Shown here piece by piece: positions 4,443 through 24,508 of a stretch of DNA of 24,508 bases; positions within the stretch are counted from its first letter, which is position 1, and each line of letters starts with the position of its first letter. Source of the DNA: a virus. The position numbers and the translations under genes are program-made. The notes under the pieces are model-generated. The model ran no database searches. It was not told the origin of the DNA and saw nothing but the letters and a program-made list of their open reading frames with translations. The stretch lies in UHGV virus genome UHGV-0135138. One strand, given 5' to 3'.

Positions 4443-5324
4443 ATGCCATTACTGCGTGAAGAAGCTGAAAAGCTGTCTAACAACGAACTCGAACAGGGTG
4501 TGATCGAAACTATCATCGATCGCGATGACCTGTTTGCCATCCTGCCGTTCATGAAGATTAACTCTAAGGCGTATCTGTACAATCGCGAGGCTACCCTGAG
4601 TGAAGCAGAGTTTATTGACGTGAACGATACCATCACGGAAGGCGCAGCAACCTTCACAGAACATGTAGCGAAGCTGCGTATTCTGGCTGGTGACGTAGAC
4701 GTTGATAAATTCCTGGCAACCACGATGGCCGACACTAACAACCAGTTGGCCATTCAGGTTCGTCAGAAAGTTAAAGGTCTGGCTCGTGCATTCCGCCGTA
4801 ATCTGATTTTGGGGGATTCCAGCACCAATGCTAAGGCTTTTGATGGTATTCCACGTCTGATGCATAACGACCAGAAGATCGATATCGCTAAAGCCTCTAT
4901 GACTTTCTCTATGTTTGATGAGTTGGTGGATGCAGTGAAAGATCTGGGCGCGGACTGCATTATGATGCGTTCAGAACATCTTCGTGCTTACCGTGCGCTG
5001 CTGCGTACCGTCAACATCGGACCGTCAGAAATTATGATAGAGAATTTTGGGCGTCCTATGCTGTGTCACAACGGAATTCCGTTTATTGTTAATGACTTTA
5101 TTCCGTTGACAACCGAAAAGGATGCAGCGGATATTTACTGTTTGCATTTATCGGAAGAGAACGGTTTGACTGGCCTGTATGGCGGCGACAATGCTGGTAT
5201 TGTCGTTGAAAACATTGGTACGGTTCAGAATAAAGATGCAACCCGTACTCGTGTAAAATGGTACTGCTCTCTAGCGAATAAGCACGATAAGGCTATCGCT
5301 GCACTGACTAATGTAAAAATTTAA
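4443..5324 (+). CDS. major capsid protein (putative)
   Basis: 293-aa ORF directly after the scaffold candidate, with the same CAAAGGGAATT RBS context (4427-4437 and 3516-3526), followed by a strong intrinsic terminator. Position and size fit a major capsid protein. Confidence 0.6.
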   Translation: MPLLREEAEKLSNNELEQGVIETIIDRDDLFAILPFMKINSKAYLYNREATLSEAEFIDVNDTITEGAATFTEHVAKLRILAGDVDVDKFLATTMADTNNQLAIQVRQKVKGLARAFRRNLILGDSSTNAKAFDGIPRLMHNDQKIDIAKASMTFSMFDELVDAVKDLGADCIMMRSEHLRAYRALLRTVNIGPSEIMIENFGRPMLCHNGIPFIVNDFIPLTTEKDAADIYCLHLSEENGLTGLYGGDNAGIVVENIGTVQNKDATRTRVKWYCSLANKHDKAIAALTNVKI

Positions 5325-5333
5325 TCAATGTGG

Positions 5334-5351
5334 TAGGTAAGTAATTACCTA
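5334..5351 (+). promoter_or_regulatory. gene-junction element TAGGTAAGTAATTACCTA (imperfect inverted repeat TAGGTAA-n4-TTACCTA)
   Basis: 17/18 identical to 1905-1922. Lies 10 nt after the capsid stop and just upstream of the terminator hairpin. Confidence 0.35.
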
Positions 5352-5355
5352 TGTT

Positions 5356-5384
5356 AAAGGGTGGGCTATACGCCCACCCTTTTT
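5356..5384 (+). terminator. intrinsic (rho-independent) terminator after the capsid gene
   Basis: AAAGGGTGGGC-TATAC-GCCCACCCTTTTT: GC-rich stem of 8 bp (extendable to 11 with flanking A/T) followed by a T5 run. Confidence 0.8.
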
Positions 5385-5397
5385 GTAGGAATGAGAA

Positions 5398-6057
5398 ATG
5401 CCAGAACAAAAGATGATGATTACCGAAGAGGCCTTTTCGGATTTCACGGGGCATATGTGCCGTGTCGGATTTACCAATTCTATCTCCGATGAACCTTTAA
5501 CCGAGCGACAACAAAGTCAGCTATCAGCTTGTTTGCAGGCGACTTCCTTCACCCAATCCGTAAACATAACCCCTGCTTCAGCGTCAGTTTTGGTGGGGAA
5601 AAGCGTTCAACTAAGTGCAGGTATCAGTATGGGTAAGAGTGCCGGTTTATTCACCTGGAATTCAGCCAATGATCAAACTGCAACCGTTAACAGCAATGGG
5701 TTAGTAACTGGCGTAGCCCCTGGCAAAGTAAAAATTACTGCAACTGATCAGGAAACCCAGCTTTCCGCGTCAGCTGAAGTGACTGTAAATCCGGTAGCTG
5801 TTCAATCTGTAACTATAACGCCAGACTCAACCTCTGTTGAGAAAGGGAAATCAGTCAATCTGAAAGCGAATATCCAGCCGTCAAATGCGACGAATAAAGC
5901 AGTTACCTGGTCTTCCAAAAATGAAGATAAGGCAACGGTAAACCAGAGCGGTAACGTTACTGGTGTTGCTGCTGGTACTGCCACGATTGAGGTAACTACT
6001 CATGATGGTAGCCACAAAGCAACAGCGATCGTAGAGGTTACTGGCGCACAGGAATAA
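5398..6057 (+). CDS. Ig-like (Big_2-type) domain protein, candidate head decoration protein
   Basis: 219 aa. Two tandem ~80-aa segments with the bacterial Ig-like group 2 pattern (ITP.S.SV..GKSV.L.A...P.NATNK.VTWSS.N...ATVN.SG.VTGVA.G.A.I..T). Preceded by an AGGA RBS and located right after the capsid gene. Confidence 0.7.
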   Translation: MPEQKMMITEEAFSDFTGHMCRVGFTNSISDEPLTERQQSQLSACLQATSFTQSVNITPASASVLVGKSVQLSAGISMGKSAGLFTWNSANDQTATVNSNGLVTGVAPGKVKITATDQETQLSASAEVTVNPVAVQSVTITPDSTSVEKGKSVNLKANIQPSNATNKAVTWSSKNEDKATVNQSGNVTGVAAGTATIEVTTHDGSHKATAIVEVTGAQE

Positions 6058-6101
6058 TCAGTATTGGGCGGCGAAAGCTGCCCATGTAGAGAGAAAGCGT
6101 A

Positions 6102-6536
6102 ATGAAACCTGCAAAAATTGTTCTATTAGAACCACAATTTTCCAGTTATTCGGGAATGCTGTGCGGTGTTCAGTTCGAGAATGGTGTGTCCATCGCAGAG
6201 TTGCCTTTTGTCGATCAGCAGAGAATTTGTGCCTCAATGCGAGCTTCAACAGTAGAGGGCAAAAATGTTTCTCCATCTGCCGCATACAGTGATCGTGGTG
6301 AATTGACCGCAGACCTGATTACAGAGCCAGTAGCGCCTGACATTGTACCAATGAAACGTGGGATGCCAGATGGACCGACCAAACAGATCCAGACTTTCAC
6401 ACGAGAAGAGCTGGAGTCAATTGCAGACAATGAAGGCATTGCCGGTCTACGTGTAATTGGGAATCAGATGGGTGTTAAAGCGAAAGGAATTGTCGAGATG
6501 ATTGAAGGTATCCTGAAAGCACAAGGCGGTGAGTAA
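6102..6536 (+). CDS. hypothetical head-associated protein sharing its N-terminal module with the upstream Ig-like protein
   Basis: 144 aa. N-terminal ~45 aa (EPQFSSYSGMLCGVQFENGVSIAELPFVDQQRICASMRA) aligns with the N-terminus of the 5398-6057 product (EEAFSDFTGHMCRVGFTNSISDEPLTERQQSQLSACLQA); the C-terminal part is unrelated. Stop overlaps the next start (TAATG). Confidence 0.6.
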   Translation: MKPAKIVLLEPQFSSYSGMLCGVQFENGVSIAELPFVDQQRICASMRASTVEGKNVSPSAAYSDRGELTADLITEPVAPDIVPMKRGMPDGPTKQIQTFTREELESIADNEGIAGLRVIGNQMGVKAKGIVEMIEGILKAQGGE

Positions 6537-9517: not shown

Positions 9518-9835
9518 ATGACCAAATTACTCGATCTCGATTCCATTCTGCCTCCGAAGAAAAGTATCAAATTTGGCGGTCAGGAATATCCCATCGTTGA
9601 AATGACGGTAGGTCTGTTCGTTTCCATCAAGCAGATGGAAGGTAAAGATCTCATGAACATGTCTCCTGTTGAGCAGGTGACAGCTTATGCAGATCTGGTT
9701 CGTAAGGTTATCCCTTCTGTACCTGACGAAGTTCTTGAAAAACTGACTGTTCCGCAACTCCAGCAGATCTTCAACTTCGCTATGGAAGTGATTGATGAAG
9801 AAAACGAAAAAGCGGCTGGCGAAGGGGCAAAGTAA
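9518..9835 (+). CDS. tail assembly chaperone (lambda G-like position)
   Basis: 105-aa acidic protein between the major tail protein and tape measure genes. Its 3' end overlaps an open downstream frame in the -1 register, the conserved chaperone arrangement. Confidence 0.7.
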   Translation: MTKLLDLDSILPPKKSIKFGGQEYPIVEMTVGLFVSIKQMEGKDLMNMSPVEQVTAYADLVRKVIPSVPDEVLEKLTVPQLQQIFNFAMEVIDEENEKAAGEGAK

Positions 9836-10185
9836 TTTCCCGCGATGAATCCGGGACAAGGACCGTCTCAATAGATCTCGGATTCTATTTCAGTCGTGTA
9901 GTTGCTCACTACGCCGTGTCGCCATTAGAGCTATTGAACATCCCTCTCACGATGTTCTGGATGCTCAGCCGTAATATAGACCGTCTGCGTGCGGAAGAAG
10001 ATGTCCGCAACTTACAAGTCGCTCGTGTATCCCAGGCGAATGGCGAGGCTGTAAAGGCGTTCATGGAGGGGTTGCAACTCAGGATTGGAAGACCAGTCGT
10101 TACAGATAAAGTCTACGATCCAAGCCAGGATAAGGCAGACCCTGACGCCAAAGAGCAACTGATGCAAATATTTGGCAGAGGATGA
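9799..10185 (+). CDS. -1 frame extension of the tail assembly chaperone (lambda GT-like frameshift product, putative)
   Basis: The -1 frame is open from 9799 (after TGATGA at 9793-9798) to the stop at 10183-10185 and overlaps the last 12 codons of the chaperone ORF. Candidate slip site is the A5G run at 9807-9812 (GAA AAA G). The only internal start is a GTG at 9916 with no RBS, so independent initiation is unlikely. Confidence 0.5.
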   Translation, partial: RKRKSGWRRGKVISRDESGTRTVSIDLGFYFSRVVAHYAVSPLELLNIPLTMFWMLSRNIDRLRAEEDVRNLQVARVSQANGEAVKAFMEGLQLRIGRPVVTDKVYDPSQDKADPDAKEQLMQIFGRG

Positions 10186-17297: not shown

Positions 17298-17314
17298 TCA
17301 AGGATTTTTTGGAC

Positions 17315-20300
17315 ATGGAACAGTTCAAGCAAAAAAAATTACCGCTTCTTATTGGCGGCGCTGGTGGTAAAAAAAGTAGCAAAAGCTCCAGCCGTACTCC
17401 GGTTGAAGCTGACGATACCGTGAATTCTCGTGCAATGGCCGCTATCCTCGATCTTCTTGGGGAAGGGGTAATTGGCGGCTTAGTAAATGGCGCAAGATCT
17501 ATTTTTGTCGACGATTTACCGATTGTAAATGAAGACGGCTCCTCCAATTTTAGCGGAATTACTTGGGATTTTCGCGACGGTTCACAAGACCAGACTCCAA
17601 TGTCCGGCTTTGATTTCGTTGAAACACCCAAATCCGTCAATATTCAATTAAAAAAAACACATTATGTAACGGTTTCAATCGATAACGATGAAGCTGATCG
17701 TGTTCGTGTCATCATGAAGTTTCCTTCTTTGCGAAGCGTAGATAAAAAAACTGGTGACACGAACGGCACGACTGTTGAGTACAAGTTCCAGATAGCGAAT
17801 GGCGACTCAACATTTGTAGATGTGGTTGCAGAAGGTGAAAAAAGCGTTGGCATTAAGCTAACTGCAAAGAAGACAGGTGTTTATTACCGTAGTTATGAAC
17901 TGAAGTTACCTAAGCCTGGGCGCGCGTATAAGGTGCGTGTTGTCCGTATTACCGATGACAACAACAGTCAGTATCTCTATAACGACACATGGGTAGACTC
18001 AATAGGTGAGATTGTTGATACACCGATGAACTACCCAAACTCTGTGCTGGTGGGGTTGAAGGTTAATTCTGAGCAGTTTGGCAACTCTATGCCATCTCGT
18101 TCGTATTTGGTGCGAGGATTAAAAATTCGTGTGCCGTCAAACTACAACGAATCCAGCAACACTTATGTGGGCGTATGGGATGGCACTTTTAAGCTGCTGT
18201 CTTCTTCGAACCCTGCGTGGATTCTCTTTGATTTGCTTACCAATGCTCGATATGGTCTTGGGCAATTCGTGTCGGAATCCATGATTGACCTTGGCCAACT
18301 GTACCAGATTGGTCGATATTGTGACGAAGAGGTCGATGATGGCTTTGGGGGTAAAGAGAAACGCTTTGCAATCAATACGCAGATCACCAGTCGACAGGAC
18401 GCATACCGATTAATTCAGGATATTGCCGGTGCATTCCGCGGCATGGTGTTTTGGGCTGGTGGCATGGTTAACATCATGCAGGATAGCCCATCAGATCCGG
18501 TAATGATGTTTACTAACTCCAACGTCAAAGATGGATTGTTTTCCTATAAAGGTTCTGCACGTAAAGATCGTCCATCAGTTGCGCTCGTGACTTATAACAA
18601 CAAGGAGGACGGTTATAAGCAAAATATCGAGTACGTCGAAGATCAGGAAGCAATGCGCCGTTATGGTGAGCGCAAAACAGAAGTCGTAGCATTTGGCTGT
18701 ACAAGTCGAGGACAGGCTCACCGAGTTGGTTTGTGGCTTTTGTATACCGCCAGAATGGAGTCGGATGTAATTACATTTACTGCCGGTTTAGACGCCTCAT
18801 TTCTGATGCCTGGTGAAACCGTTCTGATTCAGAATAAATATCGCGCGGACAAACGTAACTCCGGTCGAATTATGGAGTTTACCAAAAACAGCATCACTCT
18901 CGATGCGCCTGTGTCGTTAACTAAAAGCGGCAGCTTTATTCGGATACTGAATCAGGAAGGCAAAATCGTTGAACGCGATGTTCTTGAAACTGGCGAAAAC
19001 ATAACAAAGGTTACGTTTTCAAAAGCCCTGACGTCAGCGGAAACGCCTGTTTTGAGCGGTGTCTGGACAATTACAGAACCAGATCTCGAACCTATGCGCG
19101 TTCGCATCGTTAACATCGCGCAGGGGGAAACGCCGGGTAGCTTTGACATCACCGCTGTTGAGAACAATCCGACTAAATATGAGGCGATCGACAATGGTGC
19201 AACGCTTATCCCGCAGAATACGACGGTATTGGACCCGACTTACTCGAAGCCGTCTAATTTGCAAATCACTGAAGGGACTTATCTCTCAAGTCCGGGCAAC
19301 CTGTCAGTAAAATTGACTGCAACATGGGAAGGAAAATCTCCAGAATATTGGATCAGCTGGCGACGTTCAGATGAAAGCAATGTATCGAACTGGCAATCGG
19401 CGCGTGTAACCGAAGAGCAATACGAAATCGTTAATGTTGCGGAGAATGGACGCTACGACTTCCAGCTGTATGCGGTTTCATTCAACGGTAAAAAAACAGA
19501 GATCATCAGCACCGTTTATCAGGTGCAGGGCACAATGACTCCACCTGATTCGCCAACGTCATTAACGGCAGTTGGGGACTATCGAAATGTGATACTGAAT
19601 TGGATTAATCCAGATTCGGTGGACCTTGATCATATTAATGTTTACGCATCCAAGGTTAACAATCTGGATACAGCGAAACTGATCGCAGAGTCTGCAAGCA
19701 CCACCTTTACACATGCTGGTCTTGGGGATAACGAAACGTGGTATTACTGGGTGCGAGCATCGAACAAGCGCGGCATGTTAAGCCCTCCGAACTCAAACTT
19801 GGGTACAGAGGCGACAACTCGCGATGTATTGTCGTTCCTGACTGGCAAAATTACATCTTCCGAGCTTGGTCAGGCCTTGACTGAGGAAATTAGCTCAAAA
19901 GCCTCTCAGGAGGCGGTGAACTCCATCTATGAACAGATTGATGAAAGCCTGAAGAACCTTGATGGCAAGTTTTCAGAGACAGATCGGCGGCTTGAAGAAG
20001 CTCAAAACGATCTTAAAACGGAGGTTTCCAGCACCGTCAGCAAGGTAGAAGACGCTCTTAAAGAGGTTGAAGACTCTAACGCTGCTTTAATTCAGCTACA
20101 GGAGACTGTCTCCGAGCAGGGCAAGGCTGTGGCTGGTGCAGTCGAAGCGGCCCATGCTGCGTTCGAAAATGCTTCTGCATTGATTGCCGAAGAACGTGAG
20201 GCTCGAGTAGAAGGAGATATGGCTAACGCTAAACAGATTGAGACAATGAAATCTTCTGTTGACGATAGTGTTGCGGCAGTTGAAGAGATGAAGAAAACTG

Positions 20301-21475
20301 TGGCCGAAGTCGGGCGAGTCAGTGCTGAAACGACCACTAATATTGAAGCGTTGGCAAAAACTAATATTGATCTCGCATTACGCCAGGATGAAGAACAACA
20401 CAAGCAGTTAATGAATAACGCTAAGATAGCTACCACTCAGAAGACATTTGCTGATGATTTGTCAGCGATGGCGTCGAAAGTGGAAGAGATCCGTGCTGAA
20501 ATTGGTGAAGATATTCGCGCCTCTATCACGGAGGAAACGACAGCTCGGGTTGAGGCTGATAAGGCTATTGCAACCCAAATTGACAAGCTTGAAGCTCAGA
20601 TTAACGACGATATTGCTGCGGCGATTGTGCTTGAACAAGAGGCTCGCGTCACAGCCGACGAATCATTGTCAAAACAAATTACTACATTACAAGCCAAGGT
20701 TGAAGGCGACATCAGTGCGGCGTTGACCGAAGAGCAAATTGCCAGAGCGAGCGCTGATGAATCGTTGGCGCAACAAATCACAACACTAAAGACCCAAACA
20801 GGTGTTGATATCAAGGCGGCTGTTGCGGAAGAAACGAAAGCCAGAACTGATGTTGACTCTGCGCTGGCTGGGCAGATCACTAATTTGCAGGCTCAGACAG
20901 AAAAAGATATCAGCGCCGCAATTACGTCTGAATCTACCGCACGCGCAGAAGCTGATAAAGCACTAAGTGGTCGTATTGATACGATAAGGACTGAAGTAGA
21001 AGGCAACTCAGCAACTATCCAGCAGCAATCCCAAGCCATTGCCGACACCAACAAAAAAATCTCAACGGCGTGGACGTTGAAAATGGAGACTTCAACGAGT
21101 GGGGGGCAGAAGTATATTGCCGGTATTGCGCTTGGTATCGACACAACTGGTCTTTCTCAGTTTTTGGTGCAAGCGGACAGGTTTGGTTTGGTCAACTCTG
21201 TGAACGGGAAGATCACCACACCATTTGTTATCGAAAACAGCGTCGCCTATATGAATGGTGCGTATATCAAGGATGGCACAATCACCAATGCAAAAGTTGG
21301 TGATCTGCAATCTACCGATTTTGTCTCCGGTAGATCTGGATGGCGATTCGGTAAAAATGGAACGCTTGAGATCAACGGTAATAGCGGCGGCAATGGGCGA
21401 TTGGTCATAAATGGTCAGCGGATTGATGTTTATGACGATAACAACGTCCTACGAGTAAGAATTGGCCTTCTGTGA
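17315..21475 (+). CDS. J: central tail fibre / tip attachment protein, lambda J homologue
   Basis: ORF is open from TTG 17309; the ATG at 17315 is preceded by AAGGA. Long colinear similarity to lambda J as recalled (NSVLVGLKVNSEQFG, VPSNYN, IWDGTFK, GQYCD, DGFGG, AFGCTSRGQAHRVGLWL, GKIT.S.LG, KYIAGI.LG, LSQFLV). Followed by three in-frame stops (TGATAGTAG). Confidence 0.9.
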   Translation: MEQFKQKKLPLLIGGAGGKKSSKSSSRTPVEADDTVNSRAMAAILDLLGEGVIGGLVNGARSIFVDDLPIVNEDGSSNFSGITWDFRDGSQDQTPMSGFDFVETPKSVNIQLKKTHYVTVSIDNDEADRVRVIMKFPSLRSVDKKTGDTNGTTVEYKFQIANGDSTFVDVVAEGEKSVGIKLTAKKTGVYYRSYELKLPKPGRAYKVRVVRITDDNNSQYLYNDTWVDSIGEIVDTPMNYPNSVLVGLKVNSEQFGNSMPSRSYLVRGLKIRVPSNYNESSNTYVGVWDGTFKLLSSSNPAWILFDLLTNARYGLGQFVSESMIDLGQLYQIGRYCDEEVDDGFGGKEKRFAINTQITSRQDAYRLIQDIAGAFRGMVFWAGGMVNIMQDSPSDPVMMFTNSNVKDGLFSYKGSARKDRPSVALVTYNNKEDGYKQNIEYVEDQEAMRRYGERKTEVVAFGCTSRGQAHRVGLWLLYTARMESDVITFTAGLDASFLMPGETVLIQNKYRADKRNSGRIMEFTKNSITLDAPVSLTKSGSFIRILNQEGKIVERDVLETGENITKVTFSKALTSAETPVLSGVWTITEPDLEPMRVRIVNIAQGETPGSFDITAVENNPTKYEAIDNGATLIPQNTTVLDPTYSKPSNLQITEGTYLSSPGNLSVKLTATWEGKSPEYWISWRRSDESNVSNWQSARVTEEQYEIVNVAENGRYDFQLYAVSFNGKKTEIISTVYQVQGTMTPPDSPTSLTAVGDYRNVILNWINPDSVDLDHINVYASKVNNLDTAKLIAESASTTFTHAGLGDNETWYYWVRASNKRGMLSPPNSNLGTEATTRDVLSFLTGKITSSELGQALTEEISSKASQEAVNSIYEQIDESLKNLDGKFSETDRRLEEAQNDLKTEVSSTVSKVEDALKEVEDSNAALIQLQETVSEQGKAVAGAVEAAHAAFENASALIAEEREARVEGDMANAKQIETMKSSVDDSVAAVEEMKKTVAEVGRVSAETTTNIEALAKTNIDLALRQDEEQHKQLMNNAKIATTQKTFADDLSAMASKVEEIRAEIGEDIRASITEETTARVEADKAIATQIDKLEAQINDDIAAAIVLEQEARVTADESLSKQITTLQAKVEGDISAALTEEQIARASADESLAQQITTLKTQTGVDIKAAVAEETKARTDVDSALAGQITNLQAQTEKDISAAITSESTARAEADKALSGRIDTIRTEVEGNSATIQQQSQAIADTNKKISTAWTLKMETSTSGGQKYIAGIALGIDTTGLSQFLVQADRFGLVNSVNGKITTPFVIENSVAYMNGAYIKDGTITNAKVGDLQSTDFVSGRSGWRFGKNGTLEINGNSGGNGRLVINGQRIDVYDDNNVLRVRIGLL
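20508..21002 (+). repeat. five tandem 99-bp (33-aa) coding repeats inside J
   Basis: Protein repeats EDIRASITEETTARVEADKAIATQIDKLEAQIN / DDIAAAIVLEQEARVTADESLSKQITTLQAKVE / GDISAALTEEQIARASADESLAQQITTLKTQTG / VDIKAAVAEETKARTDVDSALAGQITNLQAQTE / KDISAAITSESTARAEADKALSGRIDTIRTEVE. More degenerate copies extend upstream to about 20170. Confidence 0.75.
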
Positions 21476-21505
21476 TAGTAGAAAAAAAAATTTATATCGG
21501 TAAAA

Positions 21506-21548
21506 ATAAGTAGGTATTTACTTTGTGGTGGGCAAGAATAGCCCACCA
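21506..21548 (+). promoter_or_regulatory. J / tail fibre intergenic element: TAAGTA-family inverted repeat plus GC-stem hairpin
   Basis: ATAAGTAGGTATTTACTT (AAGTA-n6-TACTT inverted repeat) then TGGTGGGC-aagaata-GCCCACCA, an 8-bp stem with no U tract. The stem shares GTGGGC/GCCCAC with the terminator at 5356-5384. An A9 run lies at 21482-21490. Confidence 0.35.
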
Positions 21549-21568
21549 AAACAAGGAGCATATTCAAC

Positions 21569-24103
21569 ATGTGGTACAGGGAAGGTACTATCACATTTAC
21601 ACAGGGTAGCAATACTCTGGTTGGGGCAGGGACAGCCTGGAACGTAACCGCTAATGGTGTGTTGCCGGGTATGATCGTCGTTGGCCCCGATAATAAACTG
21701 TATGAGATCAAGCGCGTAACCAGTGACACGAATATTGTTCTCTCAGAACCTTATACCGGTGAAACTCAGTCTGAAGTTCCGTGCCGAATCATTACGACCT
21801 ATGAGGGCGACTTAACGCAGTTTAGCGCACGCTTTACTGCACTAATGTCGCGTATGTCGGCTGATTCCAAGTCCATGCGTAGTTGGCTGACTGCCGTGGA
21901 TGAAATCACAATTGAACGTGAAGATGGTACGGAATTAACCATAAAATCCCTTACTCAGATCGTTAATGAGCACAACAAAAACGTAGAGTGGTATAAAAAT
22001 AACACTGATGAAATTGATTCCGCTGGCACCTATGCGCGTGAGGCCGCGAGTAGCGCGACAACTGCTGCGCAAAACGCTGAGCGCGTTGAACAGATCGCGC
22101 AAAATATTGCTAACAGTATAAGTACGGCCCAGCAGGCTGCCACAGATGCTGCAAATAGTGCCGGTGCCGCGAAAACGTCAGAAACGAATGCGGCAGCGTC
22201 ACAACAATCAGCAGCCACTTCTGCATCCACCGCGACCACGAAAGCGTCAGAAGCAGCCTCCTTAGCCAGGGATGCGTCGGCTTCAAAAGAGGCGGCAAAA
22301 TCATCAGAAGCGAACGCGAAAGCGTCGGAAACCAGTGCCGAATCCTCAAAAACGGCAGCCGCATCGTCAGCCAGTTCGGCAGCGTCATCGGCATCGTCTG
22401 CGTCGGCTTCAAAAGATGAAGCGACTAAACAGGCGTCAGCCGCAAAAGATAGTGCTATGACTGCATCCTCGAAAGCAACAGAGGCGACAGGCAGTGCAAC
22501 GGCTGCCTCTCAGAGCAAAACTGCTGCTGAATCCGCTGCGACCCGTGCGGAAGCTGCTGCTGCTCGTGCTGAAGAGATTGCCGGTGCAGTTGCGATGGAA
22601 GACGCAAGCCTTACAACTAAAGGTGTTGTGAAACTTAGCAGTGCGACCAACAGCACTTCAGAGTCACTGGCTGCAACCCCAAAAGCGGTAAAAGCTGCAT
22701 ATGACCTGGCTGACGGGAAATACACTGCGCAGGATGCAACGACAACCCAGAAAGGGATAATCCAGCTAAGTAGCGCCATCAATGACGAATCTGAAACGCT
22801 TGCTGCAACGCCAAAAGCGGTAAAAGTCGCCTATGACAATGCCGAAAACCGCCTGCAGAAAGATCAGAATGGCGCTGATATCCCTGACAAGAACGCATTC
22901 AGGGAAAGTCTTGGGCTGGGGGATGCCGCCACCAAAAATATCGGTACTACAGCCGGCACCGTAGCGGCAGGAAACGACTCCAGACTGGTTAACGCACTGC
23001 AAAAATCCACTTCAGCCCTGGCCGTGGACCTGAATACACTGGGGAGTCTGGAAGTCCAGGGAACTTATTATCAGCCAGCGGATAAAGGGGCAACAGCTGC
23101 GCATCATTACCCGGTGCTCCGGTCCGGGACATTGCAGGTTCTGCCTGGTGTCTGGGGAGGCTGCCAACAGGAATATACGAGCTGGAATCCACCGAGAAAA
23201 TTTGTGAGAACACTGACAGGCTATTTCAAAGGTAATGGCCCGTGGTCGCCGTGGGTGGAGGTGGCGTTTACCGACAGTACAGTGGCTGTTGCGACCGCAG
23301 CGACAAAATTGCAGACGACCAGAAGAGTTGGTGGTGTGGATTTTGACGGGACATCAGATATCAGCCTCCCCGGAGTGGATGCGCCAGGCGATCAGGATAC
23401 GACAGGTAATGCGGCTACTGCGACCAAATTGCAGACGCCAGTGAATATTAACGGTACAGCGTTTGATGGTAGCCACGATATCACGATCCGGGATGAAGGT
23501 GCATTTCAGAAGCCTGCGCTCTTTATACATTCCTCTGTAGATTTGAACACGCTAGGTGGTCCAGGTAGCGAAGGTTTTTATTTTCAGAAATACGGGAGTG
23601 TGGCGACAGTTGATCATCATTACCCAACCAACAGACCAGGCACGCTGACTGTACTGCGTGGTGGATTTGACGGATGCCAGCAGGAATATTTTAGTGTTAA
23701 TCCTCCAAGGAAATTTTTCAGGGCATTAACAGGAGCCTGGAACGGACAGGATGGCCCATGGTCAGACTGGTTTGAGATTCAGACTCTGGGAGGTGGAAGT
23801 GGAGGTACGCAGGTTTTTGGAACCGAATATCAAAATAAATCATCAGAACGCGGTCCGGGTGTTACATACACTAATAGTCGATCGTATCCGATTATGGTGA
23901 TCATTGATGGATACTACGGAGGTGGTGACGGTTTTCATCTTTTTATAAACGATGAAATATTGATATCCCCATCTACATCTTCAGGACAAAATGACGACCA
24001 ATTTCAGTTTACTTTCATCGTTCCGGCAGGCGCAACGTACATGATCTTTGAAAAAACTTTCGGTACGAATTTCCGTATTCACACCTGGTTGGAGTTTTGT
24101 TAA
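21569..24103 (+). CDS. stf: side tail fibre protein (Stf-like), mosaic
   Basis: 844 aa with GGAG RBS. Long Ala/Ser/Thr-rich shaft (AAKTSETNAAASQQSAATSASTATTKASEAA...) that I recall as nearly identical to lambda Stf. Conserved tail-fibre motifs TKGVVKLSSATNSTSESLAATPKAVKAAYDLADGKYTAQDATTTQKGIIQLSSAINDESETLAATPKAVKVAYDNAEN. Distinct N-terminus and a C-terminal region with internal duplications. Confidence 0.9.
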   Translation: MWYREGTITFTQGSNTLVGAGTAWNVTANGVLPGMIVVGPDNKLYEIKRVTSDTNIVLSEPYTGETQSEVPCRIITTYEGDLTQFSARFTALMSRMSADSKSMRSWLTAVDEITIEREDGTELTIKSLTQIVNEHNKNVEWYKNNTDEIDSAGTYAREAASSATTAAQNAERVEQIAQNIANSISTAQQAATDAANSAGAAKTSETNAAASQQSAATSASTATTKASEAASLARDASASKEAAKSSEANAKASETSAESSKTAAASSASSAASSASSASASKDEATKQASAAKDSAMTASSKATEATGSATAASQSKTAAESAATRAEAAAARAEEIAGAVAMEDASLTTKGVVKLSSATNSTSESLAATPKAVKAAYDLADGKYTAQDATTTQKGIIQLSSAINDESETLAATPKAVKVAYDNAENRLQKDQNGADIPDKNAFRESLGLGDAATKNIGTTAGTVAAGNDSRLVNALQKSTSALAVDLNTLGSLEVQGTYYQPADKGATAAHHYPVLRSGTLQVLPGVWGGCQQEYTSWNPPRKFVRTLTGYFKGNGPWSPWVEVAFTDSTVAVATAATKLQTTRRVGGVDFDGTSDISLPGVDAPGDQDTTGNAATATKLQTPVNINGTAFDGSHDITIRDEGAFQKPALFIHSSVDLNTLGGPGSEGFYFQKYGSVATVDHHYPTNRPGTLTVLRGGFDGCQQEYFSVNPPRKFFRALTGAWNGQDGPWSDWFEIQTLGGGSGGTQVFGTEYQNKSSERGPGVTYTNSRSYPIMVIIDGYYGGGDGFHLFINDEILISPSTSSGQNDDQFQFTFIVPAGATYMIFEKTFGTNFRIHTWLEFC

Positions 24104-24105
24104 GA

Positions 24106-24471
24106 ATGAAATATTTTGTCGATGCGAAAGGTACTATTTATGCCTACGAGTCTGACGGTTCGCAGGATGAGTTCATTAAAGAGGGACTGACGCCAGTAAC
24201 GGAAGCGGAGGTGAAAGAACGCCTGAAACCATCAGCAGAATGCTGGCAACGACGAGCGGAGAGCAAGAGAGAGTCGTTGATATCTGAAGCTGGTCGCAAT
24301 TTGTCCGTCAATCAGGTTCGATTGCTTTCGGGGCGTGTGTTATCAGAACGTGAGAGTCAGTCGCTGAATGCCTGGCTGGATTACGTAGACGCACTGGAGG
24401 CGATGACGTTTGCTGCTGTTGTTGATGAGGAAAGCTATCTCAGCATCAAGTGGCCGGAAAAACCCGCGTGA
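24106..24471 (+). CDS. tfa: tail fibre assembly protein (Tfa-like chaperone)
   Basis: ORF is open from TTG 24097; the ATG at 24106 (MKYFVDAKG...) is more plausible, with GGAG 11 nt upstream. Immediately follows the fibre gene. C-terminus LNAWLDYVDALEAMTFAAVVDEESYLSIKWPEKPA resembles the lambda Tfa C-terminus (EAWKKYRVLLNRVD...APDIEWPAVP, recalled). Confidence 0.8.
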   Translation: MKYFVDAKGTIYAYESDGSQDEFIKEGLTPVTEAEVKERLKPSAECWQRRAESKRESLISEAGRNLSVNQVRLLSGRVLSERESQSLNAWLDYVDALEAMTFAAVVDEESYLSIKWPEKPA

Positions 24472-24478
24472 TAAAAAG

Positions 24479-24499
24479 GCCCGCACACAAGGTGCGGGC
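24479..24499 (-). terminator. intrinsic terminator hairpin oriented for minus-strand transcription (possibly bidirectional)
   Basis: GCCCGCAC-acaag-GTGCGGGC, an 8-bp GC stem. The T run (AAAAA on the + strand, 24473-24477) lies on the side that follows the stem for a minus-strand transcript; on the + strand the stem is followed by AAATGATCG. Confidence 0.55.
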
Positions 24500-24508
24500 A
24501 AATGATCG

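What the first reader, a model, noticed from the sequence alone, without database searches (positions are those of the whole stretch)
21569..24103. Side tail fibre is a three-part mosaic with a lambda-like shaft
The Ala/Ser/Thr-rich shaft (about 22020-22600) and the SSATNSTSE(S/T)LAATPKAVK motifs look almost identical to lambda Stf and P2 H as I recall them. The N-terminal ~150 residues (MWYREGTITFTQGSNTLVGAG...) and the C-terminal ~330 residues do not. This is the pattern expected from modular exchange at conserved linker sequences and marks the C-terminus as the host-range determinant.
Basis: partly seen in the sequence, partly recalled or inferred. Interest (0 to 1): 0.5.

Follow-up and report, generated by a model that had tools for sequence, protein, structure and literature searches.

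The report
Mosaic phage-plasmid side tail fibre
This is an ordinary but well-resolved patchwork tail-fibre gene of an SSU5-like E. coli phage-plasmid: its own anchor, a lambda-type shaft, P2/Mu-type joints, and a rare receptor-binding end that travels with its own chaperone gene.

Summary
The ORF is real: 21569-24103, 844 aa, directly after the J gene and followed by a tail-fibre assembly gene (24106-24471). The window is a whole metagenome contig holding the structural module of an SSU5-like E. coli phage-plasmid.

Neither the N-terminal 150 aa nor the distal ~390 aa has any counterpart in lambda Stf or P2 H. The SSATNSTSE(S/T)LAATPKAVK motif is present (two Phage_fiber_2 repeats). "Almost identical to lambda" holds only for a 49-aa patch (88% nt to lambda, 95% to mEp460-type Stf) and for the motif. 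The shared stretch overall is 65% aa. P2 H shares only the repeats (69% aa), not the shaft.

The mosaic has at least seven pieces, not three. Breakpoints are statistically supported, and one falls inside the conserved PKAVK motif.

The distal half reads knob, gp34/37-type repeats, knob, Gly linker, beta-sandwich tip, which is R-pyocin/P2-like in logic. Tip plus Tfa form a cassette that also sits on a lambdoid phage contig from the same metagenome (tip 63% aa, Tfa 90% aa). It was found nowhere else.

Verdict: a new member of a known kind. Modular exchange is supported. The claim that the C-terminus is the host-range determinant is plausible but inferred. Low to moderate interest.

The parts
21553..21558 (+). 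Ribosome-binding site AAGGAG, 10 nt upstream of the fibre ATG
   Evidence: Read directly from the sequence
21569..24103 (+). Side tail fibre gene, 844 aa, including the stop codon
   Evidence: ORF list. The same gene was called in the public assembly. Pfam finds Phage_fiber_2.
21569..22018 (+). Lineage-specific N-terminal anchor, aa 1-150. The core block 21060-21899 is shared with the J C-terminus.
   Evidence: 94% aa to Cyrano, 93% to pYPE3-114k, 81% to SSU5, and nothing in lambda or P2. It matches no Pfam family. It matches phrog_3299/6129/22609 at E = 1e-92 to 1e-98. Nucleotide identity to Cyrano is 94.9% in 21569-21899 and falls to 58% in 22020-22156 (p = 9e-21).
22019..22597 (+). Ala/Ser/Thr-rich shaft, aa 151-343. 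Presumed alpha-helical coiled coil. About 93 aa shorter than in relatives.
   Evidence: Composition is A 36%, S 20%, T 10%. Lambda orf-401 is 65% identical over aa 202-384 and mEp460_ev081 Stf 84% over aa 244-449. Relatives carry an extra 279-320 nt.
22157..22317 (+). Lambdoid Stf patch inside the shaft (aa 197-250)
   Evidence: 95.7% nt to mEp460_ev081 stf and 94% to phi458. 88% to lambda and 87% to Cyrano. Twenty-three lambdoid phages match at 90-96%.
22613..22738 (+). Phage_fiber_2 repeat 1 (aa 349-390). Contains the breakpoint at nt 22705 in PKAVKAAYD.
   Evidence: Pfam PF03406. Coordinates. Homology to Cyrano, pYPE3 and phi458 ends at 22694-22705.
22742..22867 (+). Phage_fiber_2 repeat 2 (aa 392-433)
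   Evidence: Pfam reports two stretches. 69% aa to P2 H and 76% to mEp460 Stf over aa 344-463. Matches Mu S structures 5yvq and 8ju3 at E = 1e-16 to 1e-18.
22868..22945 (+). NGADIPDKNAF... linker (aa 434-459). The last stretch shared with P2 H, Mu S and lambdoid Stf.
   Evidence: PDB alignment to Mu S. Nucleotide homology to P2 and mEp460 ends at 22907-22914.
23024..23263 (+). Knob domain 1 (aa 486-565), preceded by the GTVAAGNDSRLVNAL lead-in at aa 460-485
23300..23488 (+). Two T4 gp34/gp37-type repeats (ATKLQT-R-I-G-FDGS-DI), aa 578-640
   Evidence: This is the most widely shared stretch of the distal half: more than 150 of the hits cover it, at 57-75% identity. 64-67% aa to the SSU5 and pYPE3 fibres. 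69-74% nt to Cyrano and phi458.
23537..23779 (+). Knob domain 2 (aa 657-737)
   Evidence: 53% identical (51/97) to the knob 1 region. 47-54% identical to the knobs of P2-type fibres P0065, P0066 and P0020. The AF2 model is not confident here.
23789..23806 (+). Gly-rich linker GGGSGG (aa 741-746)
   Evidence: Read from the sequence. Homology to the lambdoid contig starts immediately after it at 23810.
23810..24100 (+). C-terminal beta-sandwich tip domain (aa 748-844). Candidate receptor-binding domain.
24106..24471 (+). Tail fibre assembly protein (Tfa), 121 aa. Short variable N-terminal part plus the conserved Caudo_TAP C-terminal part.
   Evidence: Pfam PF02413 at 40 bits (cut-off 22.1), residues 45-124 numbered from the TTG at 24097. 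phrog_188 at E = 6e-16. 90% aa (70/78) to the gene after the lambdoid stf on NODE_4025.
24479..24499 (.). GC-rich hairpin GCCCGCAC-N5-GTGCGGGC just after tfa. Terminator-like on the minus strand. The contig ends at 24508.
   Evidence: Consensus scan

Best explanation
The gene encodes the side tail fibre of an SSU5-like siphovirus phage-plasmid of E. coli. It is presumably a homotrimer, and it was built by repeated recombination among unrelated phage lineages.

Reading from N to C:
1. A lineage-specific anchor (aa 1 to ~150). It is co-inherited with the C-terminus of J and fixes the fibre to this phage's tail tip.
2. An Ala/Ser/Thr-rich shaft shared with lambdoid Stf proteins. Its length varies.
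3. Two Phage_fiber_2 repeats and an NGADIP linker, conserved in lambda Stf, P2 H, Mu S and P1 S. They serve as patches of DNA homology where new distal ends are recombined on.
4. A distal receptor-binding half: knob, two gp34/37-type repeats, knob, Gly linker, beta-sandwich tip.

The next gene encodes a short Tfa chaperone. By analogy with Mu and lambda Tfa, it binds the tip through its variable N-terminal part and drives trimerisation from the C-terminal end. It may stay on the virion. Tip and Tfa move together as a cassette.

Shown: the domain map, the breakpoints, the knob and beta-sandwich folds (as predicted models) and the shared tip-Tfa cassette. Inferred: trimer state, coiled-coil shaft, chaperone mechanism, receptor binding and the effect on host range.
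For: Context:
- The window is 92-95% identical in DNA to about 250 E. coli SSU5-like plasmids up to nt 22006, 22317 or 22705. After that, similarity is lost.
- Gene order is TMP, M, L, K, I, J, fibre, Tfa.

Segment map:
- Anchor: 94% aa to Cyrano and 81% to SSU5.
- 22157-22317: 95.7% nt to the lambdoid mEp460 stf.
- 22318-22619: 88-92% nt to Cyrano and phi458.
- 22620-22914: 77-81% nt to P2 H and mEp460.
- From 22915 onward nothing exceeds 75% nt in phages, plasmids or 5,426 complete E. coli genomes.

Breakpoint statistics: p = 3e-7 for the switch at 22317, p = 9e-21 for anchor versus 22020-22156, and p = 9e-19 for a breakpoint within J.

Distal half:
- The two knob regions are 53% identical to each other.
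- Tip: AF2 pLDDT 88, matching the C-termini of phage tail fibres.

Cassette:
- Window 23810-24341 is 82% nt identical to lambdoid contig NODE_4025 of the same metagenome. There the same tip follows a collagen-repeat Stf with a lambda-type N-terminus.
- Tfa is 90% aa identical and the tip 63%.
- Codon differences are 35 non-synonymous to 19 synonymous in the tip, against 8 to 13 in tfa.

Other lines:
- Sister elements carry quite different distal systems at the same locus: Gp34_trimer, gp37_trimer or Peptidase_S74, with or without a Gp38 adhesin.
- P2-type fibres carry repeats followed by a knob contiguously (P0052, 55% over aa 345-570).
- A lambda Stf(1-393)-P2 H(251-end) fusion made a few residues after this motif is functional (PMC11338833).
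- The R2 pyocin fibre is rod, Knob1, Knob2, shaft, lectin-like beta-sandwich plus a downstream chaperone. Its specificity maps to Knob2 and the C-terminal domain (PMC6116203).
- Tfa proteins have a variable fibre-binding N-domain and a conserved trimerising C-domain (PMC9608196, citing North 2019).
- SSU5 binds LPS core through its fibre-tip protein gp22 (PMC12312913, citing Kim 2014).
Against: - There is no experimental or structural evidence for this protein. The trimer, the coiled coil and receptor binding all rest on analogy.
- The AF2 model of aa 464-750 is confident only for knob 1 (mean pLDDT 59). Knob 2 rests on sequence similarity to knob 1.
- The Tfa is unusually short (121 aa, against 175-194 in P2 and lambda). 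Its fibre-binding part is therefore small.
- The sequence comes from a 3.6x-coverage metagenome contig. The second assembly that carries it is base-for-base identical over 5,820 nt and may derive from the same reads.
Confidence: 0.8

Rival explanations
1. Assembly chimera. The contig joins the proximal fibre of a phage-plasmid to the distal fibre and tfa of another co-resident phage, across sequences that several phages in the sample share (the shaft patch or the Phage_fiber_2 repeats).
For: - Coverage is only 3.6x (contig name).
- The same metagenome holds a lambdoid phage with a related tip-Tfa cassette.
- The shared segments are 90-96% identical across many lambdoid, P2-like and phage-plasmid fibres.
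- Both contigs that carry the gene end in or just after tfa.
Against: - A second assembly with different scaffold naming (ERZ28620746 scaffold_163, 44,447 nt) carries the identical 844-aa protein, with 0 mismatches in 5,820 nt.
- The reading frame is intact through every junction.
- The domain order is canonical, and each junction type has precedents in intact isolates (P0052, P0129).
- The distal part is only 82% nt identical to the co-resident lambdoid contig, so it is not a mis-join with that contig.
Confidence: 0.08
2. A simple three-part mosaic: own N-terminus, a shaft taken from lambda or P2, and one foreign C-terminal block that is the host-range determinant.
For: - Neither the N-terminus nor the C-terminus resembles lambda or P2. 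The middle does.
- The motif is essentially identical to lambda's SSATNSTSETLAATPKAVK.
Against: - Lambda is only 63% nt identical over 22318-22619, and 22020-22156 has no lambda match.
- P2 H does not share the shaft.
- The middle alone has three different nearest relatives.
- The distal block splits into knob and repeat modules of P2-type ancestry and a tip-Tfa cassette with a separate history.
Confidence: 0.1
3. The fibre is an accessory adsorption aid. Host range is set mainly by the central fibre J, as in laboratory lambda, where Stf is dispensable. The variable C-terminus would then tune adsorption rate rather than decide which hosts are infected.
For: - Lambda PaPa lacks a functional Stf and still infects. 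Stf only speeds adsorption (PMC2762979; the frameshifted orf-401/orf-314 seen).
- The receptors of Gifsy-1's Stf and J are individually dispensable (PMC12312913).
- J in this window is large (1388 aa) and itself mosaic.
Against: - In the type phage SSU5, infection of rough Salmonella depends on binding LPS core through the fibre-tip protein (PMC12312913, citing Kim 2014).
- The locus shows at least four alternative distal cassettes among close relatives.
- Non-synonymous changes are in excess in the tip.
- Both are the signature of selection on host recognition.
Confidence: 0.3

Closest known systems
Lambdoid side tail fibre Stf with Tfa (lambda orf-401/orf-314/orf-194; mEp460-type Stf)
   Same: - The gene lies downstream of J.
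- It has an Ala/Ser/Thr-rich shaft: 65% aa to lambda over aa 202-384 and 84% to mEp460_ev081 over aa 244-449.
- A 161-nt patch is 88% (lambda) to 96% (mEp460) identical.
- It has Phage_fiber_2 repeats and a Caudo_TAP chaperone gene immediately downstream.
   Different: - No phage_tail_N (PF08400) N-terminal domain.
- No lom gene between J and the fibre.
- No similarity to the lambda Stf C-terminal half (orf-314).
- Tfa is 121 aa rather than 194 aa.
SSU5 tail fibre gp21 with adhesin gp22, and fibres of E. coli SSU5-like phage-plasmids (Cyrano, pYPE3-114k)
   Same: - Same genome backbone and locus.
- The N-terminal 150 aa are 81-94% identical.
- The shaft piece 22318-22705 is 88-90% nt identical.
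- The gp34/37-type repeats are 57-67% aa identical.
   Different: - Those fibres are 1260-1725 aa.
- They end in T-even-like Gp34_trimer, gp37_trimer or Peptidase_S74 modules, with a Gp38-type adhesin or no separate chaperone.
- This one is 844 aa and ends in knob, knob, beta-sandwich with a Caudo_TAP chaperone.
P2 tail fibre H with chaperone G (and related Peduoviridae prophage fibres)
   Same: - The Phage_fiber_2 repeats and NGADIP linker are 69% aa and 77-80% nt identical.
- P2-type prophage fibres (P0052, P0009) are collinear from the repeats through knob 1 at 42-55%.
- The chaperone is of the same Pfam family.
   Different: - No PF12571 tail-collar N-terminus.
- P2 H has no Ala/Ser/Thr shaft match and no significant match to aa 464-844.
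- P2 G matches this Tfa only at E = 0.3.
R-type pyocin fibre PA0620 with chaperone PA0621 (PDB 6cl6, 6cu2)
   Different: - Sequence identity is ~15%.
- Here the two knobs are separated by gp34/37-type repeats instead of being in tandem.
- No iron-binding shaft was identified.
Mu tail fibre S with U (PDB 5yvq, 8ju3)
   Same: Repeat 2 and the NGADIP linker align at E = 1e-16 to 1e-18. A Tfa-type chaperone binds the tip (PMC9608196).
   Different: The rest of S is unrelated. No invertible segment or gix-like site is present here.

Membership tests
Lambda-type side tail fibre (Stf) | N-terminal phage_tail_N domain (PF08400) that docks on the lambda tail tip | tested here: not met
   The Pfam scan finds only Phage_fiber_2. 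Residues 1-150 have no match to lambda orf-401. mEp460 Stf and P0012 do carry PF08400.
Lambda-type side tail fibre (Stf) | Gene downstream of the central fibre gene J in a lambda-like tail-tip module | tested here: met
   M, L, K, I and J homologues lie upstream, and the fibre starts 93 nt after J.
Lambda-type side tail fibre (Stf) | Ala/Ser/Thr-rich shaft homologous to Stf residues ~205-389 | tested here: met
   65% aa to lambda (121/185) and 84% to mEp460_ev081 Stf. 88-96% nt in 22157-22317.
Lambda-type side tail fibre (Stf) | C-terminal receptor-binding half homologous to lambda Stf (orf-314 region) | tested here: not met
   No BLASTP hit to lambda orf-314 at E <= 1e-3.
P2 H-type tail fibre | N-terminal tail-collar fibre domain (PF12571) | tested here: not met
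   Absent from the Pfam scan. Present in the P2-type hits P0009, P0052 and P0063.
P2 H-type tail fibre | Phage_fiber_2 repeats (PF03406) followed by the NGADIP linker | tested here: met
   116 bits against a cut-off of 22, two copies. 69% aa to P2 H residues 255-374.
SSU5-like phage-plasmid tail fibre | Conserved N-terminal ~150-aa anchor and the position after J on the SSU5-like backbone | tested here: met
   81-94% aa. The backbone is 92-95% nt identical to ~250 plasmids.
SSU5-like phage-plasmid tail fibre | T-even-like distal end (Gp34_trimer, gp37_trimer or Peptidase_S74), with or without a Gp38 adhesin | tested here: not met
   These domains are present in five of the six sister fibres scanned (absent in p204A1) and absent here.
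Knob-domain fibres (R-type pyocin, phi11 gp45, T4 gp34 type) | Knob fold: a small antiparallel beta-sheet domain on the trimer axis | tested here: met
Knob-domain fibres (R-type pyocin, phi11 gp45, T4 gp34 type) | Homotrimer with knob sheets buried in the trimer interface | not testable with these tools
   Only monomer prediction was available.
Caudo_TAP tail fibre assembly proteins (downstream gene) | Conserved C-terminal Tfa domain (PF02413), encoded immediately after the fibre gene | tested here: met
   40 bits against a cut-off of 22.1. The ATG lies 2 nt after the fibre's stop codon.
Invertible (Mu G / P1 C type) fibre segments | gix/cix crossover site and a neighbouring Gin/Cin/Pin invertase | tested here: not met
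   No AAACC-NN-GGTTT-type site at up to 2 mismatches. No invertase in the window, but the contig ends 37 nt after tfa.

The most novel reading that the evidence does not exclude
The ~97-aa tip domain and its unusually short 121-aa Tfa may form a previously uncharacterised receptor-binding cassette.
- It matches no Pfam family.
- At more than 50% identity it was found only twice among the ~15 billion public proteins searched.
- Both copies come from one metagenome: one on a lambdoid integrative-type phage and one on an SSU5-like phage-plasmid.

That would be a snapshot of receptor-binding module exchange between a phage-plasmid and a lambdoid phage within one community, directed at an unknown receptor.
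Probability: 0.35. Interest if true: 0.4.

Novelty: new member of a known kind. Interest (0 to 1): 0.22.

Why it matters
Tail-fibre mosaicism across lambda, P2, Mu, P1 and T-even phages has been known since the early 1990s, so the principle is not new. This case adds three things:

1. A breakpoint map showing that SSU5-like phage-plasmids, which are important carriers of resistance genes in Enterobacteriaceae, draw on the same pool of fibre modules as lambdoid and P2-like prophages.
2. A natural junction in the same conserved motif next to which engineers have fused chimeric Stf proteins.
3. A compact knob-knob-tip plus short-Tfa distal cassette that could be grafted onto lambda or pyocin chassis to probe a new specificity.

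It also means that host range for these phage-plasmids cannot be inferred from the backbone.

Tried and rejected
- **Invertible segment.** A search for a gix/cix-like crossover site found none in the window.
- **Close relatives of knob 2 plus tip.** None in IMG/VR or in 185,579 species genomes. JGI/ENA metagenome records returned only the already known NODE_4025 contig.
- **Close nucleotide relatives of 22700-24508.** Phages, plasmids and complete E. coli genomes match only at the repeats or weakly at the gp37-type repeats.
- **Tfa relatives in IMG/VR.** Only 35-38% identical, and next to unrelated fibres.
- **PDB by sequence for the knob and tip regions.** Nothing significant.
- **Pfam at E up to 10 for the three distal segments.** Nothing.
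- **NCBIfam.** Only a spurious weak SMC coiled-coil match.
- **AF2 of aa 464-750.** Only knob 1 was confident, so I make no claim from the rest of that model.
- **Internal DNA repeats and tandem repeats in the gene.** Only short Ala-codon repeats. The two knobs are too diverged to register at DNA level.
Full report
**What the window is.** The 24,508-nt window is an entire metagenome contig, ENA ERZ1749178 NODE_636, at 3.6x coverage. It holds the structural module of an SSU5-like phage-plasmid of E. coli: terminase, portal, capsid, tape measure, M, L, K, I, J, fibre and Tfa. About 250 E. coli plasmids of 105-125 kb match more than 80% of it at 92-95% nucleotide identity. In all listed cases the match stops inside the fibre gene, at nt 22006, 22317 or 22704/22705. 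Phages Cyrano, CMS-2020a and SSU5 are the nearest phage records.

**Checking the observation.**
- The ORF is exactly as stated: 21569-24103, 844 aa. It has an AAGGAG ribosome-binding site 10 nt upstream.
- Pfam recognises only two Phage_fiber_2 repeats (E = 4e-34).
- The next gene is a Caudo_TAP tail fibre assembly protein of 121 aa from the ATG at 24106.
- Residues 151-343 are 36% Ala, 20% Ser and 10% Thr.
- The quoted motif occurs as LSSATNSTSESLAATPKAVK in repeat 1 and as LSSAINDESETLAATPKAVK in repeat 2.
- Against lambda itself (NC_001416 orf-401), protein identity is 65% over aa 202-384. The first ~49 residues and the motif are nearly identical.
- At DNA level lambda is 88% identical in 22157-22317, 63% in 22318-22619 and unalignable in 22020-22156.
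- P2 H matches only the repeats and the following linker: 69% aa over aa 344-463 and 77-80% nt over 22619-22907. It does not match the shaft.
- Residues 1-150 have no counterpart in lambda or P2. The same holds for residues after ~450.

The pattern is right, but "almost identical" applies only to short patches.

**Segment map.** Sliding-window and per-segment identities resolve at least seven pieces.

| Piece | Window coordinates | Content | Nearest relatives |
|---|---|---|---|
| A | 21060-21899 | J C-terminal Phage_Tail_Tip domain, intergenic region, fibre aa 1-110 | 92-95% nt to E. coli phage-plasmids; 78% to SSU5 |
| B | 21900-22156 | aa 111-196 | Diverged from everything: 58-79% to Cyrano, no lambdoid match |
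| C | 22157-22317 | aa 197-250 | 95.7% to lambdoid mEp460-type stf, 94% to phi458, 88% to lambda, 87% to Cyrano. Twenty-three lambdoid phages match at 90-96%. |
| D | 22318-22705 | aa 250-379 | 88-92% to Cyrano and phi458, 76% to mEp460, 63% to lambda. All relatives carry an extra 279-320 nt here, so this shaft is ~93 aa shorter. |
| E | 22620-22914 | Repeats and linker | 77-81% to P2 H and mEp460. Also matches the Mu S structures 5yvq and 8ju3. |
| F | 22915-23806 | aa 450-746 | No nucleotide relative above ~74% in phages, plasmids or 5,426 complete E. coli genomes |
| G | 23810-24341 and beyond | Tip aa 748-844 plus tfa | 82% nt to a lambdoid contig of the same metagenome |

The switches in nearest relative are significant (all):
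- Between pieces C and D, sites matching only mEp460 versus only Cyrano go from 14:1 to 13:49 (Fisher p = 3e-7).
- Identity to Cyrano falls from 314/331 in the anchor to 80/137 in 22020-22156 (p = 9e-21).

Two junctions sit on conserved peptide motifs. Homology to Cyrano, pYPE3 and phi458 ends at nt 22705, which is aa 379 in ...PKAVKAAYD. Homology to P2, Mu and mEp460 ends just after NGADIPDKNAF.

**The distal half.**
- No protein among 5.8 billion cluster representatives covers more than 44% of aa 464-844. The hits are tail fibres, and some are named "pyocin knob domain-containing".
- The region contains an internal duplication. aa ~472-565 and aa ~641-737 are 53% identical (51/97). They are separated by two T4 gp34/gp37-type ATKLQT...FDGS repeats.
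- An AF2 model built on homologues is confident for knob 1 only, with pLDDT ~90.
- Several of these (phi11 gp45, phage K gp144, T4 gp34) are the proteins reported as knob-domain relatives of the pyocin fibre (PMC6116203).
- P2-type prophage fibres with a PF12571 N-terminus are collinear with this protein from the repeats through knob 1. P0052 is 55% identical over aa 345-570. Pieces E and F therefore have a P2-type ancestry.

**The tip and its chaperone.**
- An exhaustive HMMER search with residues 744-844 against 1.84 billion representatives found 104 weak relatives, with E from 1e-12 to 1e-3. Most are the C-termini of proteins of 100-700 aa.
- The family consensus is GQTWQNVT-SR--G-TYTN-TGKPI ... 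F-FIVP-G-TY ... W-EL. No Pfam model matches it.
- AF2 gives an all-beta domain with pLDDT 88.
- Foldseek against viral models matches the C-termini of annotated tail fibres of Edwardsiella, Achromobacter, Acinetobacter and Agrobacterium phages at TM ~0.7-0.78.
- The one close relative is P0012, 63% identical over the last 98 aa. It lies on NODE_4025 of the same metagenome.
- That contig is lambdoid in order: J, lom, stf, tfa. Its Stf has a lambda-type phage_tail_N domain and collagen repeats, fused directly to this tip.
- The gene after it is 90% identical (70/78 aa) to the window's Tfa. DNA identity climbs from ~70% in the tip to 98% in tfa.
- Codon differences are 35 non-synonymous to 19 synonymous in the tip, against 8 to 13 in tfa. 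This is what fast-evolving receptor contacts beside a conserved chaperone would produce.
- Tip plus Tfa therefore behave as a mobile cassette joined to quite different shafts.

**Sister elements.** The same locus in close relatives carries other distal systems:
- Gp34_trimer, gp37_trimer or Peptidase_S74 plus a Gp38 adhesin in pYPE3-114k, pCP53-113k and SSU5.
- Gp34_trimer with no separate chaperone gene in Cyrano and the CP090273 plasmid.
- An unrelated 793-aa fibre plus an S74-containing protein in p204A1-109K.

**Mechanism.** The shown parts are the domain order, the breakpoints, the predicted folds and the cassette sharing. The rest is inferred from established knowledge.
- The N-terminal anchor is co-inherited with the J C-terminus and docks the fibre on this phage's tail tip.
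- The Ala/Ser/Thr shaft is a spacer of variable length.
- The Phage_fiber_2 and NGADIP stretch is a universal joint. Its DNA conservation across lambda, P2, Mu and P1-type phages lets homologous recombination attach new distal ends. A lambda Stf(1-393)-P2 H(251-end) fusion made a few residues after this motif is functional (PMC11338833).
- The knobs and the tip contact the cell surface. In R-pyocins, specificity maps to Knob2 and the C-terminal beta-sandwich (PMC6116203).
- The Tfa binds the tip with its variable N-terminal part, nucleates trimerisation through its conserved C-terminal helices, and may remain on the virion (PMC9608196, summarising North et al. 2019).
- In SSU5 the fibre-tip protein gp22 binds LPS core and restricts the phage to rough strains (PMC12312913, citing Kim et al. 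2014). This supports a host-range role for this locus in the lineage.

**Rivals.**
- *Assembly chimera.* This is the main technical risk, given low coverage, shared repeats and a related phage in the same sample. A second assembly with different scaffold naming (ERZ28620746 scaffold_163, 44,447 nt) has the identical sequence over 5,820 nt. The frame is intact, and the distal end is only 82% identical to the co-resident lambdoid contig. I put this rival at ~0.08. It is not excluded if both assemblies used the same reads.
- *The literal three-part, lambda-derived model.* The segment map contradicts it.
- *An accessory role.* Whether the fibre decides host range or only speeds adsorption, as Stf does in lambda (PMC2762979), cannot be settled from sequence.

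**Novelty and interest.** Horizontal exchange of tail-fibre segments among lambda, P2, Mu, P1 and T-even phages is textbook knowledge, so the phenomenon is already known. This protein is a new combination with a rare tip-Tfa cassette, and I rate it a new member of a known kind. Interest is low to moderate (0.22). The mildly interesting points are that a phage-plasmid and a lambdoid phage in one community carry the same cassette, that the tip family has no curated model, and that a natural breakpoint lies in the motif beside which engineered Stf chimeras were fused.

Noticed in passing
window 17309-21475 (J), especially 20807-21050 versus 21060-21568: The central fibre gene J is itself mosaic. 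20807-21050 is 88% nt identical to Salmonella phage SSU5 but 66% to E. coli relatives (Cyrano). 21060-21568 is 92% to Cyrano and 78% to SSU5 (p = 9e-19). The J C-terminal Phage_Tail_Tip domain and the fibre anchor (to ~21899) form one conserved block, which suggests they interact. J also has a long Ala/Glu-rich coiled-coil-like stretch at aa ~830-1230.
   Followed up: partly
window 22302-22317: The shaft is about 93 aa shorter than in Cyrano, pYPE3-114k, phi458 and mEp460_ev081. All four carry an extra 279-320 nt at this point, and the two BLAST pieces overlap by 16 nt. This fits unequal crossing-over between the Ala/Ser-rich repeats.
   Followed up: partly
L009 / L015 (ERZ1749178 NODE_4025 = OLHG01004025.1), 5001-6474: A lambdoid contig from the same metagenome (J, lom, stf, tfa) has an Stf made of phage_tail_N, a shaft and collagen GXY repeats, fused directly to the same tip family. 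It is followed by a 90%-identical Tfa. The contig ends inside tfa.
   Followed up: yes
window 24472-24508 and L014: Both public assemblies that carry this fibre stop within or just after tfa: 24508 here and 120 nt earlier in ERZ28620746 scaffold_163. A GC-rich hairpin lies at 24479-24499. The downstream sequence may be repeated or variable in the sample.
   Followed up: no
L003, L004, L005, L010, L011, L012 (fibre loci of sister phage-plasmids): Close relatives carry at least three other distal systems at this locus: T-even-like Gp34_trimer, gp37_trimer or Peptidase_S74 with a Gp38 adhesin; Gp34_trimer with no chaperone gene; and an unrelated 793-aa fibre followed by an S74-domain protein.
   Followed up: partly
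window 22110-22412 (-) and 22510-22782 (-): Long antisense ORFs of 100 and 90 aa run across the shaft. They are analogous to the annotated lambda orf206b, which lies opposite stf. They are most likely a by-product of the GCN-rich Ala codon run, not genes.
   Followed up: no
window 9518-9835 and 9916-10185: Two small ORFs lie just upstream of the tape measure gene, in the position of the tail assembly chaperone pair G/GT. A programmed frameshift was not examined.
   Followed up: no
window 23804-24100: The tip-coding segment has 40% G+C. The shaft has 57% and the whole window 48%. This compositional step fits a separate origin for the tip.
   Followed up: no
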